Positions 1 through 26,382 of a stretch of DNA of 64,000 bases are shown piece by piece (positions within the stretch are counted from its first letter, which is position 1; every line of letters begins with the position of its first letter). The translations under genes were made by a program, and so were the position numbers. Origin of the DNA: Candidatus Aminicenantes bacterium (GTDB lineage Bacteria; Acidobacteriota; Aminicenantia; Aminicenantales; JAFGBC01); the NCBI GenBank assembly GCA_963702005.1, contig OY969696.1:2752001-2816000 (forward strand). The letters run 5' to 3'. Below the pieces are notes generated by a model that worked only from the letters and a program-made list of their open reading frames with translations, was not told the DNA's origin and did no database searches.

Positions 1-800
1 AGGTACTTGTGGAATTTTTGTTTCAAGCCCAACGGGCTTTCCTCGCGATCCTGCCAGAGGCTTCCGCCGCAGGAGAGCTCGAGCCAGTCGGTGAGCCGAA
101 CCCTGATGATGACGTCGAGCAGGAACGCCTGGCCGAGATAGAAGGCCTGTCCGGCCTGGGACACCAGCTGGATGTTGATGGTCGCCCGGTCCTGGAGCCA
201 GGCGGCCATCCGGACGCCGATTTCCTGCTTGAGCTTGTCGCCGGAGAGGTCGAGGTGGGTCCGCTGGTTCGTGTGGTGGAAGAACCACAGGAAAGGCTCG
301 ATGTAGAAGGACTCGAACTCGACCGGGAGGCCGAGGCCGATGTAGTTCCGGTTGGTGTAGAACGGCTTCCCCAGGCGATAGCTCGTGTGGTCCGAGTCGT
401 GGTTGCTGTCGTGGCCGATGACGAGGACCAGGTTGTCGTAAACGGACTGGCGCAGCGAGAAATGCCAATCGTACTGGGTCCGGTTGTGCCCGTCGTCGTG
501 GGTCACCAGTTGAGCCAGGAAGCGCGTCCGGGGCGTGAAGTAGATGACGTTCCGGAACCCATAGCTCCAGCGATCGACCAAGCCGCTCAGGTCGTTGTAG
601 CTGGGGAAGGTCGAGGGGGCTTGGAGATGGCCGAACAGCTCCCCGCGGATGATGATCGTTTTGCGGCTCGATAACAGAGCCCGGTCCGGCTCGGGGCGGT
701 AGATGAAGAGCTCGTACCCGAACAGGGCCGGCCCCAGGAAGAGCAGGGTCCCGAAGAGGAAAGCCGGTCGGAAGGCTCGGACGGCGCTTTTAATATTCAT
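1..800 (-). CDS. Secreted/outer-membrane beta-barrel protein, 3' end runs off the window
   Basis: Not in the ORF track. Hand translation from ATG 800 gives MNIKSAVRAFRPAFLFGTLLFLGPALFGYELFIYRP..., open to position 1. It has a signal-peptide-like N-terminus and alternating aromatic/hydrophobic beta-strands, and its start overlaps the stop of the upstream receptor gene. Confidence 0.7.
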   Translation of the reverse strand, partial: MNIKSAVRAFRPAFLFGTLLFLGPALFGYELFIYRPEPDRALLSSRKTIIIRGELFGHLQAPSTFPSYNDLSGLVDRWSYGFRNVIYFTPRTRFLAQLVTHDDGHNRTQYDWHFSLRQSVYDNLVLVIGHDSNHDSDHTSYRLGKPFYTNRNYIGLGLPVEFESFYIEPFLWFFHHTNQRTHLDLSGDKLKQEIGVRMAAWLQDRATINIQLVSQAGQAFYLGQAFLLDVIIRVRLTDWLELSCGGSLWQDREESPLGLKQKFHKY

Positions 801-3633
801 AGGCCAACCCCAAACGGAAGATGCGCGGCGACTCGATCTCGGTGGCGAAGCGGAGCGGCCAGTCGGGCCCCGTCCACGGGATTTCGCCCGTCGCCAGATG
901 CTGGTTGAAGACGTTGAAGGCGTCCAGGATGAGGCGCAGACGCGAGGCGCCCCAGGCGAAAACCTTCTCGATCCTGACGTCCCAGGTCATGTTGAACTCA
1001 TAGCGGGCGACGCCCCGCGGGTGGGCCATGATCGCGAACGGGCCCTGATTGAACCCTTCGACGATGATCCAGCGGGCGAAGGGCTGGCCGTCGTAGTACT
1101 TGCCCAGGATGGCGATCCTCGTCCCGGCCGGGCCATTGAGGGCCAGGCCGGTCCGGACGACATAGGCCCGGTCGAAACGGACCCGGCCCTTGGCGTTGAT
1201 GAGGTTATTCGGGTTTTCGAAGAGCGATCCGGGAATCCCGTCGTCGTTCTCCCACTCGCTGTTCCCGGGGCTGGTGGTGCCGATCGCTTCGGTGGCCGTG
1301 GCCGCCAGGAAGAAGCCGCCGCGCTCGCCGAAGGGCTTGACGATCGTCAGGTCGAGGCCCCGGTAGCGCGTGACGGGATTGATCGGCTCGCTCGGGTTCG
1401 TCAGCAGGAAAGAATCTTGGCCGAGCGTTTCGGGCCGCTGATTATAGACGGTGAAGGTCAGGTCGTCGTACGTCCCGGGAACCGTGTCGTCTCCGGCCTC
1501 AGAGATTACGACCCGGTCGTAAGCCGAGAAGGGGACCCCGACGTTGACCGATTCGATGAGGTTGTGCGTCTCGCGATAGAAGCCGGCCAGCCCGAGTTGC
1601 CAGCCCCGGCCCAAATCTTGATGAAAGGAAACGGCGTAGGCGTCCGTAAACGGCCGCTTGAGCCCCGGGTCGATCGATCCGAAGGCGGGGCCCTCCCGGC
1701 GCAGAAGGCGGCCCCGCTCGCCCTCCTGGAATTGGCGGTCGCCGTTCTCATCGTTCCAGGCATAGGCCAGGGCGCCCAGCGCGCCCGGATGGCCATAGGT
1801 TAAATAGGAGAGAGGCATCCCGTAATAATAGCGGCCCACCTCGGCCCGCAACGTCGACGCCCCCGCCCCCCAGAGAGGGATGGTGAGGCTCAGGCGGGGA
1901 GAGAGATTCGTCCAGCGAATCCGGTTCTGATCGGACACCCCGATCGATCCCGAGGAGCGAGGGCGCCCGAAGCACGACGAGAAATTCAGCCCGGCCGACA
2001 CCGAAAGAAAACCGGCGAGCTTCGTCCGTTCTTGGACGGCGGCGGTCAGGATAAGCCCGCTTTCCCGGTGGCTGAACGAGGGGCTGTTGAAATCGACGAC
2101 TTCGAGGGCTCCGCCCTTATAAAAGCGGAGGTGCCGCGCTCCCAACACTTTTTCGGTGCTGTCGTTCGCGATCGAGCGGAGCTCGAGGCTGTAATCGAGA
2201 CGGTTGAGATTCTTGGTCTTGGCCGAGAGGAGAGACGTCCCGCGCGCGAACAGGACGAGCGAGCTTCGGACGGACTCGGAGGCCTCTTCGGCCGGGCCGC
2301 TCGGGATATTCCTAAGGATTTCGACCGTATAGTATCCCGATGCCCCGTCCTGAAACCCGTTGACGATGCGGCCGCGGTTAAAGGAGACTCCGGCGCTCAG
2401 GGCATGGCGGTCTCCCAGCCGGCCCTCCCAGACGGCTTGGGCCAAATCATAGGCACGACGCTGGTCCAAGGTCGTCGAGAAGGGAATGTTCCGGCCGGCG
2501 CCGAAGGAAGGCTCCTGGATGTTCTGTCCGGTCCAGAGCAGCTTGAACCGGCCGCCCGGGGCTTGATAGGTGAGCTGGACGAGTCCGGAGGCCAGATAAG
2601 ACCGGTCGGCCTTTTCGCTGTCCGCCAGGTCGCGGGCGAGGTTGAACGAAGTCCAGGATGTGAACAGATACAACTTGTCCTTGACGACCGGGCCCGAGAG
2701 CCGGAAGTTGCCTTCGAGGCCGAAGTCGAGGCTGCTCGCCGCGCTGATCCCTTCCTTGCGAAGCGCGGGAGTAATATTATTGGATCGAAGCAGGCGGTCG
2801 GTGCCGTAGGCGGACAGGGCTCCGTGGAATTCGCTCCCGCCTTCCATCGTCTCGAGGTCCAGGACGCCGCCCGGCGAAGAGATCCAGAGCGGCGGAGTGG
2901 AATTGACGAGGCTCAGGGAGTTCAACCCGAACAGGTCGGGCCAGAGGAGGGGCATCCCGGTCTGGTAGGGGTCGGTCACGTCGACTCCGTTGAGCGTATA
3001 GACCGTCTGCGTCCAGGATCCTCCCCCCCGTGCGCTGAACAGGCCGGGCCGGGTCGCCCACATTCCGCCGACGTCGATCCGGTTCATCGTCGCCGAGTAG
3101 TCCTGGTTCTCGATCGTCGTCCAGACGTCATTACCGGAGGGGAGCCGATCCATCTGGTCCCGGCCGATGAACGTTTGCCGGGAAGAGATCGGGTCTTCGG
3201 GAGTCAGACGTCTCACCGTTATCCCTCCGTCCGCCTTCTTCCCGGAAACGGTGATATCAAGGATATAGGACTGGGGCATCGGGAAGGATATTTCTTTTTC
3301 GGCGGGAAGGCCTTGAAGCGTCGCTCCCTCGACGATGAGGCTGTAGCGTCCGACCGGGAATCCGACGGCTCTGAAGTATCCGTCCTCATCCGTCGTTAAA
3401 GCTGACCGGAAGCTGCCTTCCTTGGCGCTCAGAAGGACGCCGAGGCTCCGGCCCGGGGCGCCGGCCCCGTCCTTCACGCGCCCCCAGATCGATACCGCGT
3501 CATCGGCCCCGGCCGAGGCACAGAGTGAAAGGACGGCCGCGAGGGCCGCCCAGACGCGCGGGTGTTTGCGAATCGATGGTCTCTGAGTATCCATGTGCCG
3601 TATAATCTTTATCATTTTGCCCGGCACTGTCAA
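790..3633 (-). CDS. TonB-dependent receptor-like outer-membrane protein (Oar type, N-terminal carboxypeptidase-regulatory-like domain)
   Basis: 947-aa ORF with a signal peptide, SIWGRVKD..G..., a plug-like NGVDVTDP segment and C-terminal DAFNVFN...PRIFRLGLAYEY. The true start may be ATG 3594. Confidence 0.8.
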   Translation of the reverse strand: MTVPGKMIKIIRHMDTQRPSIRKHPRVWAALAAVLSLCASAGADDAVSIWGRVKDGAGAPGRSLGVLLSAKEGSFRSALTTDEDGYFRAVGFPVGRYSLIVEGATLQGLPAEKEISFPMPQSYILDITVSGKKADGGITVRRLTPEDPISSRQTFIGRDQMDRLPSGNDVWTTIENQDYSATMNRIDVGGMWATRPGLFSARGGGSWTQTVYTLNGVDVTDPYQTGMPLLWPDLFGLNSLSLVNSTPPLWISSPGGVLDLETMEGGSEFHGALSAYGTDRLLRSNNITPALRKEGISAASSLDFGLEGNFRLSGPVVKDKLYLFTSWTSFNLARDLADSEKADRSYLASGLVQLTYQAPGGRFKLLWTGQNIQEPSFGAGRNIPFSTTLDQRRAYDLAQAVWEGRLGDRHALSAGVSFNRGRIVNGFQDGASGYYTVEILRNIPSGPAEEASESVRSSLVLFARGTSLLSAKTKNLNRLDYSLELRSIANDSTEKVLGARHLRFYKGGALEVVDFNSPSFSHRESGLILTAAVQERTKLAGFLSVSAGLNFSSCFGRPRSSGSIGVSDQNRIRWTNLSPRLSLTIPLWGAGASTLRAEVGRYYYGMPLSYLTYGHPGALGALAYAWNDENGDRQFQEGERGRLLRREGPAFGSIDPGLKRPFTDAYAVSFHQDLGRGWQLGLAGFYRETHNLIESVNVGVPFSAYDRVVISEAGDDTVPGTYDDLTFTVYNQRPETLGQDSFLLTNPSEPINPVTRYRGLDLTIVKPFGERGGFFLAATATEAIGTTSPGNSEWENDDGIPGSLFENPNNLINAKGRVRFDRAYVVRTGLALNGPAGTRIAILGKYYDGQPFARWIIVEGFNQGPFAIMAHPRGVARYEFNMTWDVRIEKVFAWGASRLRLILDAFNVFNQHLATGEIPWTGPDWPLRFATEIESPRIFRLGLAYEY

Positions 3634-3644
3634 GATGTTATAAT
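3617..3644 (+). promoter_or_regulatory. Putative sigma70 promoter of lpdA
   Basis: TTGCCC-16 bp-TATAAT with an extended TG, about 25 bp upstream of ATG 3669. Confidence 0.45.
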
Positions 3645-3668
3645 CTTCGCACCCTCAAGGAGACGGCC

Positions 3669-5073
3669 ATGGCGGAACGGTACGAAATCATTATCATCGG
3701 CGCGGGGCCGGGGGGGTATGTCGCCGCCCTCCGCGCCGCCCAGCTCAAGAAAAAAACCCTCCTCATCGAAGAGGACAAGGTCGGCGGGACCTGCATGAAT
3801 TGGGGCTGCATCCCGACCAAGCATTTGCTGCACCTGACCAAGATTTTCGAGGACGTCCGGGCCGCCCGCCATCTCGACGGCCCCCGCGACCAAATCGGCT
3901 GCGACTGGGCCAGGGTCCAGGAGGAGCGGGCCAAGGTCGTTGACAAACTTGTCAAGGGAACTGAGTTCTTGCTTAACAAGAACGGCGTAACGGTCATCAA
4001 GGGCCGGGCCGCGCTGCGCGGACCTGACAAGGTCGCGGTCGCCGCGGCCCAAGGCGAACGGGAATACGAATCCGGCAGGATCGTCCTGGCCACGGGGAGC
4101 CGTTCGGCAGACCTCCCTTTTCTCAAGCCGGACGGCATCAGGGTCATCACGAGCCGCGAGGCGCTCGAGCTGGCGGCCGTCCCTAAAAGTATGATCGTTA
4201 TCGGGGCCGGCGCCATCGGCCTCGAGCTGGCTTCCGTCTACCGTCGAATGGGAACCGACGTCCTCGTCCTCGAGATCCTGCCCGCGATCCTGCCCGGCTC
4301 GGACCGCGAGATCGCCCTGCGCCTGGAGCGGATCCTGACCAAACAGGGCATTAAAATCCAGACCCAGATGAGGATCGAAGAAAGCCGCGTTGAGGAGGAG
4401 GGGGTCGTCCTCAAAGGGATCTGCAGCAAAGGGGGGACGCCGTTCGAATTCGGAGCCGAGAAGGTTCTCGTCGCGGCGGGCCGGAAGCCCAACTCCGAAT
4501 GCCTCTGCTCGGGCCCGCCCCGTCTCGCGCTCACCCGGCAGGGATTCGTCGAAGTCAACGCTAAGCTCGAAACGAATATCCCCGGCGTCTACGCGGTCGG
4601 CGACCTCATCGGCGGCAAGCTCCTGGCCCACAAAGCCTCCCAGGAGGGAATCCTGGCCGTCGAAAATGCCTTCGGCGCCTCCAGGGATATGCGCTACGAC
4701 GCCCTGCCCATGGCCGTCTTCACCGATCCCGAGTTGGCCTCGGTCGGGCTGACCGAGGAGGAAGCCCGAGAGCGCGGCCTGGATGTCCAGGTCGGCAAAT
4801 ACCCGTTTCATGCCAGCGGCCGCGCCCTGACGCTCGAAAGCAGCGAGGGCATGGTGAAAATCCTGGCCGGGAAGGACGACCGTATCATTGGCGCCCACAT
4901 ACTCGCCCCCTACGCCAGCGAGATCATCCCCGAGCTAGACCCTGGCCATCCATAAGGGCTTGGCCCTTCAGGACATCTCGTCGGCGATCGCCATCCATCC
5001 GACGCTTTCGGAAGGCGTTGTGGAAGCCGCCCTCAAGGCTAAGAACGCAGCTTACCACATCCTGAATATCTAG
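3669..5073 (+). CDS. lpdA: Dihydrolipoamide dehydrogenase (E3) with a +1 frameshift at about 4937
   Basis: GAGPGG FAD motif, GGTCMNWGCIP redox disulfide and GAGAIG NAD motif. The listed ORF stops at 4955, but the conserved end TLAIHKG...IHPTLSEGVVEAA...ILNI* continues in another frame to TAG 5071-5073. Confidence 0.9.
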
Positions 5074-21434: not shown

Positions 21435-22544
21435 ATGGACAAGGACTATTACAAGACCTTAGGGGTCGAACGGGCGGCCGGAGTCCAGGAGATCAAGAAA
21501 GCCTACCGGAGGCTGGCCCGCAAGTACCATCCCGACCTCAACCCCGGCGACAAGACCGCCGAGGCCCGCTTCAAAGAGATCCAGGAGGCCTACTCGGTCC
21601 TGAGCGATCCCAAGAAAAAAGCCCAGTACGACCAGTTCGGGTTCGTGGGGGATCGTCCTCCCGCCGCAGCTGAACGGCCCGACAGTTCCGGATTCGAGGG
21701 CTTCGACTTCTCCGGCTTCGGGACGACCTCCTTCCGGGACTTCTTCGAGAACCTGTTCGGACGCTCGGCCGGCCAGGCCGCTCCTCAGCGGGAAGGACGA
21801 GGGGAAGACCTCCTTTACACGATGAAGCTCGGGTTCGAGGACGCCGTCCACGGCGTCCAGACCCGGATCAAGCTCAACCGGATGGTCCGCTGCGCGACCT
21901 GCGGAGGCCGGGGCACCGTCCAGCACGCAAGCCGGCGCGCCTGCCCGACCTGCCGGGGGAGCGGCCGGAGCTACTTCCAGCGCGGGGCCATGAAGTTTTC
22001 GGCGAATTGTCCTGACTGCGGCGGGAGCGGCGAGACGGCCGGCGAGGATTGCCGAGACTGCCGGGGCGCCGGACTGGTCGCCAGGTCCGAGCTCATCAAC
22101 GTCCGCATCCCGGCCGGCGTCGATTCGGGATCCAAGGTCCGGATCGCGGGCAAGGGGCACGAGGACCGGCTGGGCGGGCCGGCCGGCGACCTCTACATCC
22201 AGATCGAGGTCAATCCCCATCCTCTGTTCCGGCGCGAGGGACCGAACATCACCGCCAAGATCCCGATCACGGTCCCCGAGGCGACGTTGGGAGGGAAGAT
22301 CGACGTCCCGACCCTTTACGGCCGGACGATGATCCGGATTCCGCCCGGGACGAAATCCGGGCAGCGCTTTCGTCTCAAGGACAAAGGCGCGCCCGTTCCC
22401 GGCCGGAAAGCCGTCGGCGACCAGGTCGTCGAGGTCACGATCGTCCCGCCCCCGTTCGCGGACCAGCGGGTCCGGGAGCTCATGAAGGAGCTCGCGAAGA
22501 TCTCGGGGCCCAATCCGAGGGAATTCCCGGGAGGAGGCGACTGA
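21435..22544 (+). CDS. dnaJ: Chaperone DnaJ (class A)
   Basis: J domain with HPD, G/F region, four CxxCxGxG repeats. Confidence 0.93.
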
Positions 22545-22545
22545 G

Positions 22546-22977
22546 ATGAGGAAGCGCAAGTCGACGAGGAGCCGTAGCGAAGAAAACCAGGCTAGCCAAC
22601 CCTATTATCATATCTCGAGCGTCGCTCTTCGCTTTAACATCCATCCTCAAACGCTGCGCCTCTACGAGCGGGAGGGACTCCTCCGTCCCTCGCGGAGCGA
22701 GGGCAACACGCGTCTCTACACGGAGGAGGACCTCAAACAACTCGAGGTCATTCTCAACCTCATCCGCGAGCTCGGCGTCAACCTGGCCGGCGTCGAGGTC
22801 ATCCTCAACATGAGGGAACGGATGAGGCAAATGGAGATTCAGGTCTCGGAGTTTTTAGAGTATATCCAGACTGTATACTTCGCCGGACGGGAGGACGAGT
22901 TCGAGAACCGGCGCAGGAGCCTGGTCAAGGTTTCGGCGACCGGCATCGTCAAGTCCGGGGAGCCCGAGGGTTCCTGA
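22546..22977 (+). CDS. hspR: HspR-like MerR-family heat-shock repressor
   Basis: IHPQTLRLYEREGLL.PSRSEGNTRLY...LGVNLAGVEVIL, directly after dnaK-dnaJ. Confidence 0.85.
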   Translation: MRKRKSTRSRSEENQASQPYYHISSVALRFNIHPQTLRLYEREGLLRPSRSEGNTRLYTEEDLKQLEVILNLIRELGVNLAGVEVILNMRERMRQMEIQVSEFLEYIQTVYFAGREDEFENRRRSLVKVSATGIVKSGEPEGS

Positions 22978-22999
22978 ACGGGGAGGCCGGAGGCGATCC

Positions 23000-23842
23000 G
23001 TGGATTATCAGGACTTTCTCGATTCCCGAAACCTGCAGCTCTACTTGGACCAGATCGCCAAATTTTCCCTCTTCAGCGAGGAACAGGAGAAGGCGCTGGG
23101 GGAGCAGATCCTGAAGGGCGACAAGGACGCCCTCCGGATGCTCGTCGAGTGCAACCTCCGCTTCGTCGTCTCGATCGTCAAGCGGTACCGGGGGATGGGA
23201 ATCAGCTTCCTGGACCTCATCAACGAGGGCAACGTCGGGCTGATCGAGGCCGCCCGGCGCTTCGACCCCAAGCGGGGGGTCCGGTTCATCTCCTATGCCG
23301 TCTGGTGGATCCGCCAGTCCATCATCCACGCCCTGACCCATTCCTCCCGGATCTACAACATCCCCCAGAAGCTCTCGGACCAGATCTCGCTCATGAAGCG
23401 AAAGAAGGAGAAGCTCAAGGCCGAGCTGGGCCGCGAGCCGGAGCGGGAAGAGATCGCTAAAAGCATGGGAATCTCGGCCGAGGAGATCGAGGACCTCGAG
23501 CTCCTGTCCGAGCGGAACATCTCCTTGAGCGATCGCTACGGCGAGGACGACCTCGAGGTCGAGGAAAAGATCAGCGATCAGGAACGGCCCTCCGTCGAGG
23601 ACCAGGTCATCCATTCCTCGATCCAGAGCCAGATCCGGGAACTCCTGGCCGGGCTGGATGATAAAGAGGCACTTGTGCTAAAATTACGGTTCGGCCTGGA
23701 CGATGACAGGCCGCGGACGCTGCAGGAGATCGGCAAGATTCTCAGCGTGACCCGGGAGCGGGTCCGCCAGATCGAGCAGAAGGCCAAGCGGAAGCTGGCC
23801 CAGTCGAACAAACTCCAGCAGCTCAGAGGGTACCTCAATTGA
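23000..23842 (+). CDS. sigma70-family sigma factor lacking region 1.1 (RpoD/SigA-like group 2/3)
   Basis: LQLYL, NLRFVVSI, DLINEGNVGL..A..RFDP..G.RF.SYA.WWIRQ and RTLQEIG...VTRERVRQIE. Confidence 0.92.
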   Translation: MDYQDFLDSRNLQLYLDQIAKFSLFSEEQEKALGEQILKGDKDALRMLVECNLRFVVSIVKRYRGMGISFLDLINEGNVGLIEAARRFDPKRGVRFISYAVWWIRQSIIHALTHSSRIYNIPQKLSDQISLMKRKKEKLKAELGREPEREEIAKSMGISAEEIEDLELLSERNISLSDRYGEDDLEVEEKISDQERPSVEDQVIHSSIQSQIRELLAGLDDKEALVLKLRFGLDDDRPRTLQEIGKILSVTRERVRQIEQKAKRKLAQSNKLQQLRGYLN

Positions 23843-24591
23843 CGCCCGAAACGATCTGTCCCGTTTGCCAGGGTAACCGCTGGGTCCTGGAGGAGTCCGG
23901 GGGCGCCGTCCGAGCCCGCCGCTGCACCTGCCAGACCGAGCGCCGAGGGCGGGTCCTCATCGAACAAGCCCGGATTCCGCGCCGCTACCAGAATTGTTCC
24001 CTGGCCAATTTCGACGGCCGGAACGATTCCCTCCGCAACGCCAAGAAGATCTCGGAAAAATTCGTCAAGAACTACCCCGTCCAGGAGGTCGGACTCGTCT
24101 TTCTCGGACCCTGCGGGGTGGGGAAGACCCACCTGGGCGTCGCCATCCTCCGCGAGCTCGTTGAGACGAAATCGGTTCCCTGTCTGTTCTATGACTTCCG
24201 TGAGATTATTCGCGACATCCAGAGCACCTTCAGCCCGGACTCGGCCTTGAACGAATCCGACGTCCTGGCCCCGGTCTTCGAAACCAAGGTCCTCGTCCTG
24301 GACGAGCTCGGCGCCAAGCGGACGACGGCCTGGGTCGAGGAGACCGTTTTCTACATCATCAACCAGCGCTACAACGCCAAGAAGTTGACGATCTTCACGT
24401 CGAATTACCCGGACACTGCCGAGGAGGAGGACGACGACCGGCGCGACGCGTTTTATAAAAAAGGGGAAGAGACGCTGATCGACCGGATCGGCGTCCGGCT
24501 CCACTCCAGGATCTACGAGATGTGCAAGATCGTCCGCATCGACGCCGAGGACTACCGCAAGATCGCCAAGCAGGCCAGCTACCGGTTTTAG
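23839..24591 (+). CDS. DnaC/DnaI/IstB-like AAA+ ATPase with an N-terminal Zn-binding motif
   Basis: CPVC...CTC, IPRRY, GPCGVGKTHL, LVLDELG and IINQRY...TSN. Confidence 0.85.
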   Translation: MTPETICPVCQGNRWVLEESGGAVRARRCTCQTERRGRVLIEQARIPRRYQNCSLANFDGRNDSLRNAKKISEKFVKNYPVQEVGLVFLGPCGVGKTHLGVAILRELVETKSVPCLFYDFREIIRDIQSTFSPDSALNESDVLAPVFETKVLVLDELGAKRTTAWVEETVFYIINQRYNAKKLTIFTSNYPDTAEEEDDDRRDAFYKKGEETLIDRIGVRLHSRIYEMCKIVRIDAEDYRKIAKQASYRF

Positions 24592-24632
24592 CGGGGATGC
24601 GCTCGCTGAGTGAATCCTCTTCCTGAGCCTTA

Positions 24633-24661
24633 TTGCTTTTTTAAAATCTCCATGCTATAGT
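24633..24661 (+). promoter_or_regulatory. Promoter of the tRNA gene
   Basis: TTGCTT-17 bp-TATAGT with an extended TG, 13 bp upstream of the tRNA. Confidence 0.55.
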
Positions 24662-24674
24662 CTGCAGCGCCTGC

Positions 24675-25011
24675 TCCTCGGTAGCTCAATCGGCAGAGCG
24701 GGTGGCTGTAATCATCTTGCAGCTTCCACGAGAAATCGTGGTTGAAAAATCGGGTGAATTCAGGGAAGCCTTCCCTCCGCCGGGAGCGGAGAAAGGTAAT
24801 CCTGAGCCAAGCCCCGTCCCGAACAAAGTTCGGGACGGGGAAGGTGCAGAGACTAGAGCCTAGGCTCGTACTCCGGGTATGACCTGGGGGAAGCGCCCGA
24901 CACCCTCCCCTCGATAATGCGAGGCGGGTGAAGAGATAGTCCAAGCCCAGAAGAAATTTTGGGGGCCTTGTAACCACTAGGTTGCAGGTTCGAGTCCTGC
25001 CCGAGGAGCCA
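24675..25011 (+). tRNA. tRNA-Asn(GTT), exons 24675-24709 and 24971-25011, interrupted by a group I intron
   Basis: Joined exons give a canonical 76-nt tRNA: TCCTCGG/CCGAGGA acceptor, G73, encoded CCA, D arm AGCTCAATCGGCAGAGC, anticodon arm GGTGG-CTGTTAA-CCACT and T arm GCAGG-TTCGAGT-CCTGC. Confidence 0.92.
24710..24970 (+). ncRNA. Group I self-splicing intron (261 nt, no ORF) at tRNA position 35/36
   Basis: P1 GGCTGT|AA pairs with TTGCAGCT, giving a U.G at the splice site. Core elements: P AATTCAGGGAA, Q AATCCTGAG, R GCAGAGACTAG, S AAGAGATAGTCC, P3 TCGGGTG/CGCCCGA, GAAA-capped P2 and P9, terminal G. Confidence 0.9.
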
Positions 25012-25029
25012 TTTTTATTCCCGCCTCTA

Positions 25030-26382
25030 TCAGGTCAAAGATGACGGGGCCGTTCCTCCGCCGTCCGGCCTTCTCCCCCGTCGCCCCCGGCGATGCCGTT
25101 TTCGCCTGCTCCGCTCCGATTCCGGGCCGGACGGGACGGATTCCCGCAGAAGAATCTCGAAGCCCTCTCCCGGCCCGGCCGGGCGTCCCGTCCTGATCAG
25201 AAAACAGAGGCGGCCGGCCTGTCCAAAATGACTGCGCTTGGCCAGGGACCAGCGCATCCGGCCTGTCCGCAGGGCGCGGCCCATCGCTCCCAGAATCAAC
25301 AAAATCTGGATGAAGTCGGCTTTGAGTTTCCGGGGCAGGGTCGCTTTCATCCCGGCCCGGTCAAAGGTTTCATAAAGGATGTTGTGGATGTCCCCCGGCT
25401 CGGCTCCGAAGAGCGGCTCGACCCATGGCCAAAAAATGAGCGAGTACATCTCTTCGGCCGCGAGCTTCAGTCCCGCCCGCCGGGACCTATCCTCGACGTC
25501 GAGGAGTCGATCGAGCCGGGCGTACAGAGCGGGGTTGGATTCGTAATCCTCGCCGGCCTTGCCCAGGATGATCCCGAGCAGCCCGCGGGTTCGCAGCGCT
25601 GCGAAGACGGGCCGCGTTTCATAGGCCAGATCTTTGTTGAGCTCCTCATATAAACGCGCTCCCGAGCACGCGGCTAAAAGCTCGCGCTGAGCGGGGATCT
25701 CCCGTTCGGTCGCCTCGTCGACCGTGAACCCGAGACGGCCCGCGTGGCGCAGAACCCGCCAGACCCGGACGGGATCCTCGGCGAAACGCTCGGCCGGATT
25801 CCCAATGACTCGGACGACGCGGCGGGTCAAGTCCTCGACTCCCCCCACGAAATCGATGACGACATCGTCGTCCGGGTCGTAAAACAGGGCGTTGATCGTG
25901 ATGTCGCGCCGGAAGGCGTCCTCGCGGGGCGTCCCGTAGATCAGTTTCGGGTCGATCGGCGCGTCGGGCGAGATCTCCTCGCCCCGGTCGGGGATGCGCC
26001 GGAAAGTCGCCACTTCGATAATCTTCCCCTCCGGGAAACGGACGTGGGCCAGCCGGAAACGGCGGCCGATGATGAAACAGTTGGCAAACCTCTTGCGGAT
26101 CTGTCCCGGCCGGGCGTCGGTGACGATGTCGAAATCCTTGGGGACCCTCCCCAGCATGAGATCCCGGACCGCCCCCCCCGTCAGATAAGCACGAAAGCCG
26201 AAGCGATGGAGGCGCCGGATGATCCCCAGGGCGTCCGGGTCGACCTCCCGGCGCGAGATCGGGTGGTCGGGCTTTTCGATGACCAGGGGCGATTCGGGGC
26301 CGTCCGGAGGGGCGGATTCGGCGTCGCCTGGATCAAGGACAGAAGGGGGGACGTCCCTGGATTGATCATCGCCGTTTGTCAT
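25030..26382 (-). CDS. pcnB: Poly(A) polymerase I
   Basis: GGAVRDL.LG..PKDFDI, PAP-specific IIGRRFRLAHV, RRDITINAL, EDPVR and an Arg-rich tail. Confidence 0.9.
   Translation of the reverse strand: MTNGDDQSRDVPPSVLDPGDAESAPPDGPESPLVIEKPDHPISRREVDPDALGIIRRLHRFGFRAYLTGGAVRDLMLGRVPKDFDIVTDARPGQIRKRFANCFIIGRRFRLAHVRFPEGKIIEVATFRRIPDRGEEISPDAPIDPKLIYGTPREDAFRRDITINALFYDPDDDVVIDFVGGVEDLTRRVVRVIGNPAERFAEDPVRVWRVLRHAGRLGFTVDEATEREIPAQRELLAACSGARLYEELNKDLAYETRPVFAALRTRGLLGIILGKAGEDYESNPALYARLDRLLDVEDRSRRAGLKLAAEEMYSLIFWPWVEPLFGAEPGDIHNILYETFDRAGMKATLPRKLKADFIQILLILGAMGRALRTGRMRWSLAKRSHFGQAGRLCFLIRTGRPAGPGEGFEILLRESVPSGPESERSRRKRHRRGRRGRRPDGGGTAPSSLT

What the first reader, a model, noticed from the sequence alone, without database searches (positions are those of the whole stretch)
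24675..25011. tRNA-Asn(GUU) split inside its anticodon (35/36) by a 261-nt group I ribozyme
Seen in the sequence: exon 1 (24675-24709, 35 nt, ends ...GGCTGT) and exon 2 (24971-25011, starts TAACCAC...) join into a perfect 76-nt tRNA with loop CT-GTT-AA, U1-A72 and G73, which fit Asn identity. The insert has a full group I core. P1 (24704-24711/24717-24724) places a U.G wobble exactly at the 5' splice site. Also present are P2 with a GAAA loop, P3 (24750-24756/24894-24900), the P/Q/R/S elements, a 13-bp P6a (24812-24840), P7 GACTA/TAGTC, P8, P9 with a GAAA loop, P9.0 and omega-G at 24970. Established knowledge: the classical bacterial tRNA group I introns are in Leu(UAA), fMet, Ile(CAU) and Arg(CCU) at other anticodon-loop positions. 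From memory, 35/36 Asn/Asp introns have been reported mainly in Patescibacteria (verify). This host has respiratory and diderm genes and is clearly not a reduced CPR genome. Inference: standard tools would miss the gene or miscall it as Tyr/Thr, and Asn decoding may depend on self-splicing.
Basis: partly seen in the sequence, partly recalled or inferred. Interest (0 to 1): 0.88.

Follow-up and report, generated by a model that had tools for sequence, protein, structure and literature searches.

The report
Self-splicing intron splits only tRNA-Asn gene
The genome's single asparagine tRNA gene is interrupted inside its anticodon by a well-preserved group I ribozyme that must cut itself out before the tRNA can work; the same kind of intron at the same spot turns out to be common in many bacterial groups, so it is real but not rare.

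Summary
Rfam's group I model hits 24700-24963 at 99.5 bits (cut-off 50). Joining 24675-24709 to 24971-25011 gives a 76-nt tRNA-Asn(GUU). Intron-less alleles in relatives join at exactly 24709|24971.

It is the only tRNA-Asn gene and the only group I hit in a one-contig 4.31-Mb genome. Asn decoding therefore needs splicing. Default ARAGORN misses the gene.

In 16 homologues, 95.5% of cells pair and 32 of 103 pairs show compensatory change.

By my hand tally, 21 of 60 same-order relatives carry the intron and 27 lack it. Named contigs point to Aminicenantales.

Longer relatives carry an HNH-like endonuclease ORF in the P1 loop. The window's copy has lost it.

A 2020 preprint raises tRNA intron classes from 4 to 21, but its table is an image I could not read.

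Verdict: a genuine new member of a known kind, of modest interest.

The parts
24633..24661 (+). Promoter-like TTGCTT (24633-38), 17-nt spacer, TGcTATAGT (-10 at 24656-61), about 13 nt before the tRNA 5' end.
   Evidence: Read by eye. The tool's stricter sigma-70 scan did not call it, so this is inference only.
24675..24709 (+). Exon 1 of tRNA-Asn(GUU): acceptor 5' strand, D arm, 5' strand of the anticodon stem and C32-U33-G34-U35.
   Evidence: ARAGORN on the spliced and unspliced sequence. Intron-less alleles end their match here.
24710..24970 (+). Group I intron, 261 nt, without an ORF. Omega-G is at 24970.
   Evidence: RF00028 at 99.5 bits. Same-site introns in 18 relatives' loci. Precisely absent in the syntenic locus of same-genus G002.
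24704..24724 (+). P1. Exon GGCUGU (24704-09) pairs with the internal guide GCAGCU (24719-24), with U24709.G24719 at the 5' splice site. A 7th pair is 24710/24718. The loop is only 5-9 nt; this is where relatives carry an endonuclease ORF.
   Evidence: The six pairs are invariant in 16 of 16. The 7th pair is AU in 11, GC in 4 and AA in 1.
24726..24741 (+). P2, 6 bp with a GAAA tetraloop.
   Evidence: 2 of 6 pairs show compensatory change and 100% of cells pair.
24750..24756 (+). P3 5' strand (pairs with 24894-24900).
   Evidence: 7 bp, one pair UA in 13 and CG in 3. Aligned to P3 of RF00028.
24760..24805 (+). P4 (24760-65/24800-05), P5 (24768-72/24793-97) and P5a (24775-80/24786-91).
   Evidence: Compensatory changes lie in P5a. 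The two distal P5 pairs that I drew from the window are unpaired in 11 of 16.
24806..24845 (+). P6 (2 bp) and P6a (13 bp, 24812-24/24828-40, AAA loop).
   Evidence: 7 of 13 pairs have changes on both sides.
24851..24855 (+). P7 5' strand GACUA (pairs with UAGUC 24937-24941). This is the guanosine-binding helix by homology.
   Evidence: Invariant in 16 of 16, so there is no covariation evidence. It matches the consensus R and S elements in the RF00028 alignment.
24856..24889 (+). Two extra hairpins between P7 and P3' (24856-67 and 24871-89), in the position of P7.1/P7.2.
   Evidence: Entered as a 38-nt insertion relative to RF00028. Helix 12 has 6 of 7 pairs with changes on both sides; helix 11 has 1 of 4.
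24894..24900 (+). P3 3' strand.
24901..24930 (+). P8 (24901-05/24926-30) and P8a (24909-13/24920-24).
   Evidence: P8 is invariant. P8a has 4 of 5 pairs with changes on both sides.
24937..24941 (+). P7 3' strand UAGUC.
24943..24970 (+). P9.0-like AAG/CUU (24943-45/24967-69), P9 (24946-52/24957-63, GAAA loop) and omega-G at 24970.
   Evidence: The last base of the intron is G in all 19 (window plus 18 relatives) and in all 35 scan loci.
24971..25011 (+). Exon 2: U36-A37-A38, 3' strand of the anticodon stem, variable loop, T arm, acceptor 3' strand, G73 and an encoded CCA.
   Evidence: 100% identical to exon 2 of the intron-less alleles of G002 and G003.

Best explanation
What it is. 24710-24970 is an intact group I ribozyme without an ORF. 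Its core resembles the bacterial tRNA-intron (IC3) type. It lies between U35 and U36 of the single tRNA-Asn(GUU) gene of a 4.31-Mb genome. Named sister contigs place that genome in the Aminicenantes lineage of Acidobacteriota.

Inferred mechanism, from family membership. The precursor is transcribed from just upstream. The internal guide GCAGCU pairs with exon bases GGCUGU to form P1. A free guanosine bound in P7 attacks after U24709 (the U.G wobble). Omega-G24970 then takes the guanosine site, and the 3' OH of exon 1 attacks after it. This joins CUGU to UAAC and restores the anticodon loop CU-GUU-AA. No other tRNA-Asn gene exists, so every Asn codon depends on this reaction.

Origin. The element is an endonuclease-less descendant of a mobile intron lineage. 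Fuller members carry an HNH-like homing endonuclease ORF in the P1 loop. The lineage is patchily present in the host's order. The pattern fits mostly vertical descent with repeated precise loss and some transfer. Same-site introns occur in many other phyla.
For: Shown by tools:
- RF00028 at 99.5 bits over the full model. It is the only such hit in the genome.
- The join gives tRNA-Asn(gtt).
- 52 other tRNA genes are found, none of them Asn. Both exons occur once in the genome.
- Intron-less alleles abut at query 70|332, which is window 24709|24971. The same-genus G002 is collinear on both sides, with its match ending exactly at 24709.
- Structure is conserved with compensation: 95.5% of cells pair, and 32 of 103 pairs have compensatory change against 16.1 in shuffles (0 of 500 reach it). 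Slid controls give 32-48%. RNAalifold alone recovers P1-P9.
- Selection: the intron is 93% identical to that of same-genus G001. One blastn segment that includes the intron is 84% identical, and the upstream flank is 67-74%.
- Endonuclease in relatives. The ORF has CxxC...EFHH...CANCHREVH motifs in L020, L105, L024, L057 and L104. All 5 of 5 hit Pfam HNH below its cut-off, best E 6.5e-4. The best PDB profile hits are a group II maturase HNH region and McrA, E 0.012 and 0.033. An AlphaFold model has pLDDT 83.8, and its top Foldseek rows are HNH nucleases.
- Decay series: L070 is frameshifted, L016, L018 and L093 are internally deleted, L014 keeps only a ribosome-binding-site and start stub, and the window keeps nothing.
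- Family labels cluster on the intron tree: 6 changes against 11.2 in shuffles, as low in 0 of 200. One family is rejected as a single clade, p-AU 0.0039.

Weak hint of activity in a relative. Two RNA-library contigs of one run pass from the intron's 3' end back into the guide/P2 region (tables 5c, 7 and 8). That is what circularised group I introns would give; Azoarcus circles are described in PMC13168695 (passages read).
Against: - No direct evidence of splicing for this organism. The RNA data are contigs of relatives at 85-95% likeness, no skip joint was listed, and RNA libraries can hold DNA.
- P1, P7, P8 and most of P3 and P4 never vary. Those helices rest on homology, not covariation.
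- P10 is at best 2 bp in the window (read).
- The promoter was not called by the scan, and no terminator was found.
- The HNH assignment is below every curated threshold: Pfam 20.2 against 21.4 bits, NCBIfam none, Foldseek best E 0.068.
- The IC3 label rests on the shared core 16-mer and on recall. No subgroup models were available.
- The f4 clade test was chosen after I had seen an earlier tree.
Confidence: 0.85

Rival explanations
1. The intron is real, but in the cell it needs a host protein (a chaperone or maturase-like cofactor). It would be spliced, but not self-splicing in the strict sense.
For: P10 is weak in the window. There are extra peripheral hairpins. The review PMC3984707 (passages read) notes that many group I introns rely on protein factors.
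Against: All core helices and both GAAA tetraloops are present. The classical small tRNA introns self-splice in vitro (Azoarcus, PMC13168695, passages read). The exons are held together by the anticodon stem, so P10 may be dispensable. That rests only on the title of Zaug et al. 1993 as listed in the reference list of PMC3984707; I did not read that paper.
Confidence: 0.1
2. The gene is dead. The intron no longer splices and the split gene is a pseudogene, with Asn decoded by some other means.
For: None positive. Only the absence of direct RNA evidence for this organism.
Against: No other tRNA-Asn gene or exon copy exists in a one-contig genome. The ribozyme is more conserved than its flanks. 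Helices are kept by compensatory change. The exons are identical to those of intron-less functional alleles.
Confidence: 0.02
3. The intron entered this genus recently by endonuclease-driven homing from another lineage, rather than being inherited from the common ancestor of the order.
For: Same-genus G002 lacks it at the orthologous locus. Eight genera (g1-g5, g7, g16, g19) hold both intron-plus and intron-minus species. Endonuclease-bearing copies exist in the order, for example L020. The f4 introns are not one clade, p-AU 0.0039.
Against: Family labels cluster on the intron tree, 6 changes against 11.2 in shuffles. The window's intron has no trace of the ORF. Its nearest relative is that of the same genus, at 93%. 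Loss and gain cannot be told apart on an unrooted count.
Confidence: 0.25
4. It is an assembly or binning artefact, with foreign intron sequence joined into a tRNA gene.
For: None.
Against: The same structure occurs at the same site in 18 fully read relatives' loci and in 35 named public contigs. Synteny is conserved on both sides.
Confidence: 0.01

Closest known systems
[quoted passage not shown]
   Same: A small (about 200-260 nt) bacterial intron without an ORF in a tRNA anticodon loop. P1 is built from anticodon-loop and anticodon-stem bases with U.G at the splice site. It has omega-G. That the J6/7-P7 core sequence is similar rests on my recall of the Azoarcus intron and comes from no call. 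[quoted passage not shown]
   Different: A different tRNA and site (after position 35, not 36). About 40 extra nt form two hairpins between P7 and P3'. There is a long P6a. No biochemical data exist.
Cyanobacterial and plastid tRNA-Leu(UAA) intron (Leu.3Ug)
   Same: It lies inside the anticodon itself, so the anticodon is only formed by splicing. It is patchily distributed among relatives. It shares the core motif: 16 of 120 genome loci and 21 of 119 viral loci in my scans are called Leu(taa) by ARAGORN.
   Different: The site is 34/35 rather than 35/36. In my sample most have a minimal P7-to-P7' distance, median 40 nt against 81 here.
Synechocystis tRNA-fMet intron with its intron-encoded endonuclease (Bonocora and Shub 2001, seen only as a reference in PMC3984707)
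   Same: A tRNA anticodon-loop group I intron lineage that includes endonuclease-encoding and ORF-less members and is sporadically distributed.
   Different: The site is 33/34. That its endonuclease belongs to a different protein family from the HNH-like ORF seen here is recalled, not checked.
The 17 'new' classes of split bacterial tRNA genes in Williams 2020 (bioRxiv 10.1101/2020.01.27.920355)
   Same: The same discovery logic (RF00028 plus ARAGORN with introns, then the U-1/omega-G rule). A class 'Asn.4Ug' would describe this element exactly.
   Different: I could not confirm that Asn is listed, because Table 1 and Fig. 3 are images and supplements are closed. The preprint's text gives no structure, endonuclease or lineage analysis for such a class.

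Membership tests
Group I intron (Rfam RF00028) | Covariance-model score above the curated gathering score | tested here: met
   99.5 bits against 50, E 1.5e-24, model positions 1-253 of 253. 2.4e-26 in the whole-genome search.
Group I intron (Rfam RF00028) | P1 formed by the 5' exon and an internal guide, with U.G at the 5' splice site | tested here: met
   U24709.G24719. UG in 16 of 16 aligned homologues. The intron is preceded by T in all 35 scan loci.
Group I intron (Rfam RF00028) | Omega-G as the last intron base | tested here: met
   G24970. G in 19 of 19 and in 35 of 35.
Group I intron (Rfam RF00028) | Conserved core P3-P8 and P4-P6 with the P3/P7 pseudoknot | tested here: met
   All helices are present. 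95.5% of cells pair and 32 pairs show compensatory change. P7 is invariant, so it is supported by homology only.
Group I intron (Rfam RF00028) | Guanosine-initiated self-splicing that yields ligated exons | not testable with these tools
   Indirect only. Intron-less alleles match the predicted ligation product exactly. RNA-library contigs of a relative hint at intron circles.
Subgroup IC3 (bacterial tRNA introns) | Match to a subgroup-specific model or the defining peripheral pattern | not tested
   No subgroup models were on hand. The core 16-mer is shared with the Leu(UAA) and Arg(CCU) classes, which the Williams text says are IC3.
Subgroup IC3 (bacterial tRNA introns) | No helices between P7 and P3' (that P7.1/P7.2 are a subgroup IA trait is recalled from Michel and Westhof 1990) | tested here: not met
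   Two hairpins at 24856-67 and 24871-89 are supported by covariation. Similar P7-to-P7' lengths occur in the Gln(CUG), Arg(CCU) and cyanobacterial Asn introns of my sample, so this is a common extension and not proof of another subgroup.
Asn '4Ug' class of split tRNA genes (naming scheme of Williams 2020) | Intron after the 4th anticodon-loop base of tRNA-Asn, with U-1 and omega-G | tested here: met
   CUGU|...G|UAA.
Asn '4Ug' class of split tRNA genes (naming scheme of Williams 2020) | The class is actually listed in the preprint | not testable with these tools
   Table 1 and Fig. 3 are images. 'Asn' occurs 0 times in the text.
Mobile (homing) group I intron | Intron-encoded homing endonuclease | tested here: not met
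   The window's P1 loop is 5-9 nt. The only long frame, 24702-24863 (53 aa), is the tail frame of the relatives' ORF without the HNH part. Relatives L020 and L105 have intact ORFs.
HNH endonuclease (Pfam PF01844), for the relatives' ORF | Score above the Pfam gathering score | tested here: not met
   Best 20.2 bits against 21.4. All 5 of 5 members match weakly. Motifs, the PDB profile hits and the fold hits all point to HNH, but none is significant alone.

The most novel reading that the evidence does not exclude
The same-site tRNA-Asn introns form a large lineage, mobilised by an HNH-like endonuclease, that has not been described in print. In it, the endonuclease ORF sits in the P1 loop and reads through the internal guide and P2. 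Across a whole bacterial class, and in cultured cyanobacteria such as Tychonema and Microcoleus strains, the only tRNA-Asn is made by a ribozyme. If so, GTP- and Mg2+-dependent splicing could act as a checkpoint on Asn decoding. Ribosomes translating the ORF could also compete directly with P1 formation.
Probability: 0.25. Interest if true: 0.55.

Novelty: new member of a known kind. Interest (0 to 1): 0.35.

Why it matters
Annotation. A default tRNA scan leaves this complete genome without any tRNA-Asn, and the same will hold for many relatives. That can be misread as incompleteness or as odd decoding.

Biology. An essential decoding function is wholly dependent on RNA catalysis here. Within one order, the full life cycle of a homing intron can be read in natural alleles:
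- endonuclease-bearing;
- frameshifted;
- internally deleted;
- ORF-less;
- precisely lost;
- one 3' remnant.

Practical use. The class also occurs in named, apparently cultured cyanobacterial strains (titles), so splicing and homing could be tested at the bench.

It does not change what is known about how group I introns work.

Tried and rejected
Closed or failed tools

Literature
- 'group I intron' with 'tRNA-Asn' and with 'tRNAAsn' gave only organelle, phage or unrelated papers.
- 'group I intron' with 'Aminicenantes' found 0 papers. 'Asn.4Ug' found 0 papers.
- 'tFind' with 'group I intron' found only the preprint and a tmRNA database paper.
- 'candidate phyla radiation' found PMC8172020. 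It says some CPR tRNAs have group I introns but names no isotype (passages read).
- PMC11809585 holds the term only in its reference list.
- PMC5733544 reports short cyanobacterial 'introns' in Arg, Gly and Lys, not Asn (passages read).
- So I found no explicit printed description of a tRNA-Asn group I intron. The image table of the Williams preprint and its closed supplements may hold one.

Promoter and terminator
- The scan found nothing on the + strand upstream and no terminator.

RNA evidence
- Read laying on four RNA-library runs listed no skip joint across the intron.
- The runs hold only relatives' contigs (10, 3, 5 and 14 laid), mostly under 95% alike.
- Contigs that join exon-1-like to exon-2-like sequence have other organisms' T arms. 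They cannot tell a spliced tRNA from an intron-less gene.
- Run shares of 0.09-0.18 were not used as evidence of habitat.

Whole-genome ARAGORN with introns allowed
- It gave 37 split calls. Only the Asn call coincides with the genome's single RF00028 hit.
- I did not check the other 36. I take them for the 'ghost exon' calls that the preprint warns of.

Extra hairpins as a unique feature
- Rejected. Comparable P7-to-P7' lengths occur in other classes. I did not check where their extra bases lie.

- The 35 of 120 is therefore not a frequency in nature.
- ARAGORN isotype calls other than Asn were not verified. Labels such as Tyr(ata), Phe(aaa) and Ser(aga) are probably shifted splice sites.

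Tallies and tests
- The plus/minus tally was made by hand. Ten genomes had no clear tRNA-Asn match: G007, G009, G012, G027, G032, G034, G035, G036, G042 and G043. Two gave both signals: G026 and G031.
- Alignment A1 used 16 of the 19 sequences. I left out L016, L018 and L020, which have long P1-loop inserts, and L019, which is cut by its contig end.
- The trees dropped 5 scan loci that are the same contigs as relatives' loci (L043, L050, L094, L119, L140).
Full report
**1. The observation**

- Exon 1 is 24675-24709 and ends GGCTGT.
- A 261-nt insert runs from 24710 to 24970 and ends in G.
- Exon 2 is 24971-25011. It begins TAACCAC and ends in an encoded CCA.

Default ARAGORN finds no tRNA anywhere in the 64-kb window. 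When a script joins the two exons, ARAGORN calls a canonical 76-nt tRNA-Asn(gtt). With introns allowed, it calls tRNA-Asn(gtt) with a 261-nt intron at position 36 on the genomic sequence.

Rfam's group I intron model RF00028 matches 24700-24963 on the + strand at 99.5 bits. The gathering score is 50, E is 1.5e-24, and the whole model is covered (1-253 of 253). It is the only family above threshold in the window.

The single sequence folds to -124.2 kcal/mol, z = -5.99 against 200 shuffles. Its minimum-energy structure already shows P1, P2, P3, P4, P5/5a, P6/6a, P8 and P9.

**2. Exactness of the boundaries**

A BLAST of 24640-25040 against 60 relatives of the same order found both kinds of allele. 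In intron-less genomes the two exon matches abut on the same contig at query 70|332, which is window 24709|24971.

For the same-genus genome G002 the contig is collinear with the window on both sides:
- Positions 1-3244 match window 21465-24709 at 78%.
- Positions 3245-3285 match 24971-25011 at 100%.
- Further downstream it matches 25078-26291.

This is the orthologous locus with a precise absence of the 261 nt. G003, from another family, is likewise intron-less and syntenic upstream.

**3. Structure and selection**

Twenty loci came from the relatives search. Nineteen (the window's own plus 18 relatives) carry a tRNA-Asn with an intron at the same site, 245-550 nt long. L019 is cut by its contig end.

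I aligned 16 of them, leaving out three with long P1-loop inserts.
- RNAalifold predicts 97 pairs, 30 of them with compensatory change.
- A hand-drawn group I structure including the P3/P7 pseudoknot has 103 pairs.
- On that structure 95.5% of cells pair.
- 32 pairs have changes on both sides, against 16.1 in shuffles; 0 of 500 shuffles reach 32.
- Only 32-48% of cells pair when the partners are slid by 1-3 columns.

Compensatory support is concentrated in P2, P5a, P6a, P8a, P9 and one of two extra hairpins. P1, P7, P8 and most of P3 and P4 never vary, so they rest on homology.

The two extra hairpins lie between the 5' strand of P7 and the 3' strand of P3, at 24856-67 and 24871-89. Infernal treats them as a 38-nt insertion. 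The second has 6 of 7 pairs with changes on both sides. This is the position of P7.1/P7.2, which I recall as a subgroup IA trait.

The distance from P7 to P7' is 77-96 nt in these introns and 39-44 nt in minimal ones. Similar long distances occur in the introns ARAGORN calls Gln(CUG) (median 83.5) and Arg(CCU) (median 76), and in the cyanobacterial Asn introns of my sample. I therefore do not treat this as special.

The intron is 93% identical to that of the same-genus genome G001. One blastn segment that includes it is 84% identical, and the upstream flank is 67-74%. This fits purifying selection on the RNA.

**4. Dependence of Asn decoding on splicing**

The genome is one contig of 4,309,361 bases with 60.4% G+C.
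- ARAGORN finds 52 tRNA genes for 19 amino acids and selenocysteine, but none for Asn.
- RF00028 has this single hit in the genome.
- Each exon occurs once, and the next best matches are 19 nt or shorter.

The split gene is thus the only source of tRNA-Asn. That it is spliced follows by inference; it was not observed.

By eye, a promoter-like TTGCTT-17-TGcTATAGT lies at 24633-24661. The tool's scan did not call it.

**5. How common it is**

My hand tally of the 60 relatives:

| State | Genomes |
|---|---|
| Intron-plus | 21 |
| Intron-minus | 27 |
| Both signals (G026, G031) | 2 |
| No clear tRNA-Asn match | 10 |

Intron-plus genomes occur in families f1-f7. Family f9 has 0 plus and 5 minus. 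Eight genera contain both states.

In an even sample of 300 other genomes of the phylum, intron-like DNA (E at most 1e-10) was found in 3: two of the same order and one of the same class but another order.

Named species-representative contigs that coincide with relatives' contigs carry the titles Candidatus Aminicenantes, Aminicenantales or Saccharicenans. I take the order's name from these.

ARAGORN with introns allowed finds a split tRNA around the motif in 99 of them, and 35 of these are tRNA-Asn(gtt). All 35 read ...CUGU | intron ...G | UAAC.... Their record labels are:

| Record label | Loci |
|---|---|
| Cyanobacteria (Microcoleus, Tychonema and others) | 9 |
| 'Eubacteriales' (all fall inside the Aminicenantales intron clade) | 6 |
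| Aminicenantes | 4 |
| 'Deltaproteobacteria' | 4 |
| WWE3 / Patescibacteria | 3 |
| DPANN archaea | 3 |
| Elusimicrobia | 1 |
| Omnitrophota | 1 |
| Anaerolineales | 1 |
| Gemmatales | 1 |
| 'Gammaproteobacteria' | 1 |
| Unclassified | 1 |

None of 119 viral loci from a parallel scan has a split tRNA-Asn.

The sample is truncated and seeded with this intron's own motif. It shows breadth, not frequency. It does not support 'mainly Patescibacteria'.

On a tree of 161 tRNA introns the Asn label needs 5 changes, against 40.7 in shuffles. The window's intron lies in a starred 28-row clade that is all Asn: the Aminicenantales type plus one Elusimicrobia row.

**6. Where it comes from**

The long same-site introns carry an ORF in the P1 loop.
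- In L020 (same order, 550 nt) and L105 it is intact, at 181 and 166 codons.
- It shows CxxC ... EFHH ... C-A-N-C-H-R-E-V-H motifs.
- Its 3' part reads through the internal guide and P2 into the ribozyme core.

Five such ORFs from five lineages align at 53-74% identity to the first sequence.
- All five hit Pfam HNH, but below its cut-off (best 20.2 against 21.4 bits, E 6.5e-4).
- NCBIfam gives nothing.
- A profile search of PDB sequences gives the HNH region of a group II intron maturase and McrA, at E 0.012 and 0.033.
- An AlphaFold2 model has mean pLDDT 83.8.
- Its top Foldseek rows are HNH nucleases (Cap5, Gme HNH, ZRANB3 HNH, Cas9), but the best E is 0.068.

I therefore call it HNH-like. 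It is likely but not proven.

The alleles form a decay series:
- L070 is frameshifted.
- L016, L018 and L093 keep only the two ends of the ORF.
- L014 keeps a ribosome-binding site and start codon.
- The window keeps nothing. Its 53-codon frame 24702-24863 is the tail frame of that ORF.

On a tree of the 19 introns with known family codes, families cluster: 6 changes against 11.2 in shuffles, as low in 0 of 200. Family f4 is rejected as one clade, p-AU 0.0039. The f4 genus g19 intron sits with the two f5 introns, one of which bears the endonuclease, outside the branch (bootstrap 86, SH-aLRT 97) that unites the other 16. I named that group after seeing an earlier tree.

The picture fits the known life cycle of homing introns: invasion, loss of the endonuclease, then precise loss of the intron. 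Descent is mostly vertical, with at least one probable transfer.

**7. RNA evidence**

Runs holding the stretch are mostly wetland, sediment and soil metagenomes. Six RNA runs hold small shares of the words.

Laying contigs of four RNA-library runs at 85% likeness or more shows relatives' introns and exons. It shows no skip joint.

In one oligo-dT library, two contigs begin with sequence like the intron's 3' end (P9, then ...CUUG-U) and continue into the guide and P2 region (tables 5c, 7 and 8). That is what a circularised intron would give. Azoarcus forms such circles by omega-G attack 3 and 5 nt from the 5' end (PMC13168695, passages read).

These are contigs of a relative from one study, so this is a hint only.

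**8. What is in print**

The Williams 2020 preprint (whole text read) says that a database lists four bacterial tRNA classes, all IC3. It also says a survey of 80,413 bacterial genomes raises this to 21 classes. The classes appear only in an image table, and 'Asn' occurs nowhere in the text.

The tRNAscan-SE 2.0 paper says group I introns cause missing tRNA calls (passages read). PMC8172020 says the same for CPR genomes (passages read).

Searches pairing group I intron with tRNA-Asn, tRNAAsn or Aminicenantes, and a search for 'Asn.4Ug' alone, found no description.

**9. Verdict**

This is a real, well-conserved, endonuclease-less group I intron in the sole tRNA-Asn gene.
- The mechanism is inferred from family membership and not yet shown.
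- It belongs to a broad class that is poorly documented and probably already catalogued.
- It is useful for annotation and as a natural series of homing-intron decay.
- It is not a surprise to a specialist.

Noticed in passing
L020:1212-1754 (+), L105:4424-4921 (-), L024:5047-5394 (-), L057:1061-1534 (+), L104:2435-2806 (+): Same-site tRNA-Asn introns of 500-570 nt carry an HNH-like ORF in the P1 loop. Its 3' end reads through the internal guide and P2 into the ribozyme core. L070 is frameshifted, L016, L018 and L093 are internally deleted, and L014 keeps only a ribosome-binding-site and start stub.
   Followed up: partly
L262 (G031:C10) about 1840-1960 (-) and 4830-4905 (-): One relative has an intact intron-less tRNA-Asn. 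About 2.9 kb away it has a remnant made of the intron's 3' end (P7', P9, omega-G) fused to a full exon 2, with no ribozyme core or exon 1. It may be a trace of gene replacement or of an element integrated at the tRNA.
   Followed up: partly
window 24717-24719 and 24944-24973, run X16 (tables 5c, 7 and 8): Two RNA-library contigs of a relative run from the intron's 3' end back into the guide/P2 region, with different numbers of bases between. This is as expected of circular intron forms.
   Followed up: no
L028, L034, L104 (records labelled Pacearchaeota or Nanoarchaeota) and L057 (Omnitrophota): Contigs labelled as DPANN archaea carry tRNA-Asn group I introns at the same site. They group with an Omnitrophota intron, apart from the main Asn clade. 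This could be mis-binning, as Williams 2020 suspected for one such genome, or real archaeal hosts.
   Followed up: no
L070, L087, L105 (records labelled Deltaproteobacteria): These carry an Aminicenantales-type intron and near-identical exons inside the Aminicenantales intron clade. The cause is either wrong labels or transfer between phyla.
   Followed up: no
window 25033-26382 (-), 23839-24588 (+), 23000-23839 (+), 22546-22974 (+): Neighbours of the tRNA gene by Pfam are a PolyA_pol/CCA-adding-type nucleotidyltransferase immediately downstream on the other strand, an IstB/DnaC-like ATPase, a sigma-70 family factor and a MerR-family regulator. The upstream genes are syntenic in several families of the order.
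   Followed up: partly
window 24702-24863 (+): A 53-codon open frame across P1 to P7 is the same frame as the tail of the relatives' endonuclease ORF. It has no HNH part and is most simply a by-product of the conserved RNA sequence.
   Followed up: partly
L261 (G002:C99) about 3286-4323: The same-genus intron-less genome has about 1 kb of extra DNA directly 3' of its tRNA-Asn that the window lacks.
   Followed up: no
Viral-contig loci L142-L260: 48 of 119 viral contigs with the core motif have an ARAGORN split-tRNA call around it: Leu(taa) 21, 'Tyr(ata)' 12 and others. None is Asn. The isotypes other than Leu are unverified and may reflect shifted splice sites.
   Followed up: no
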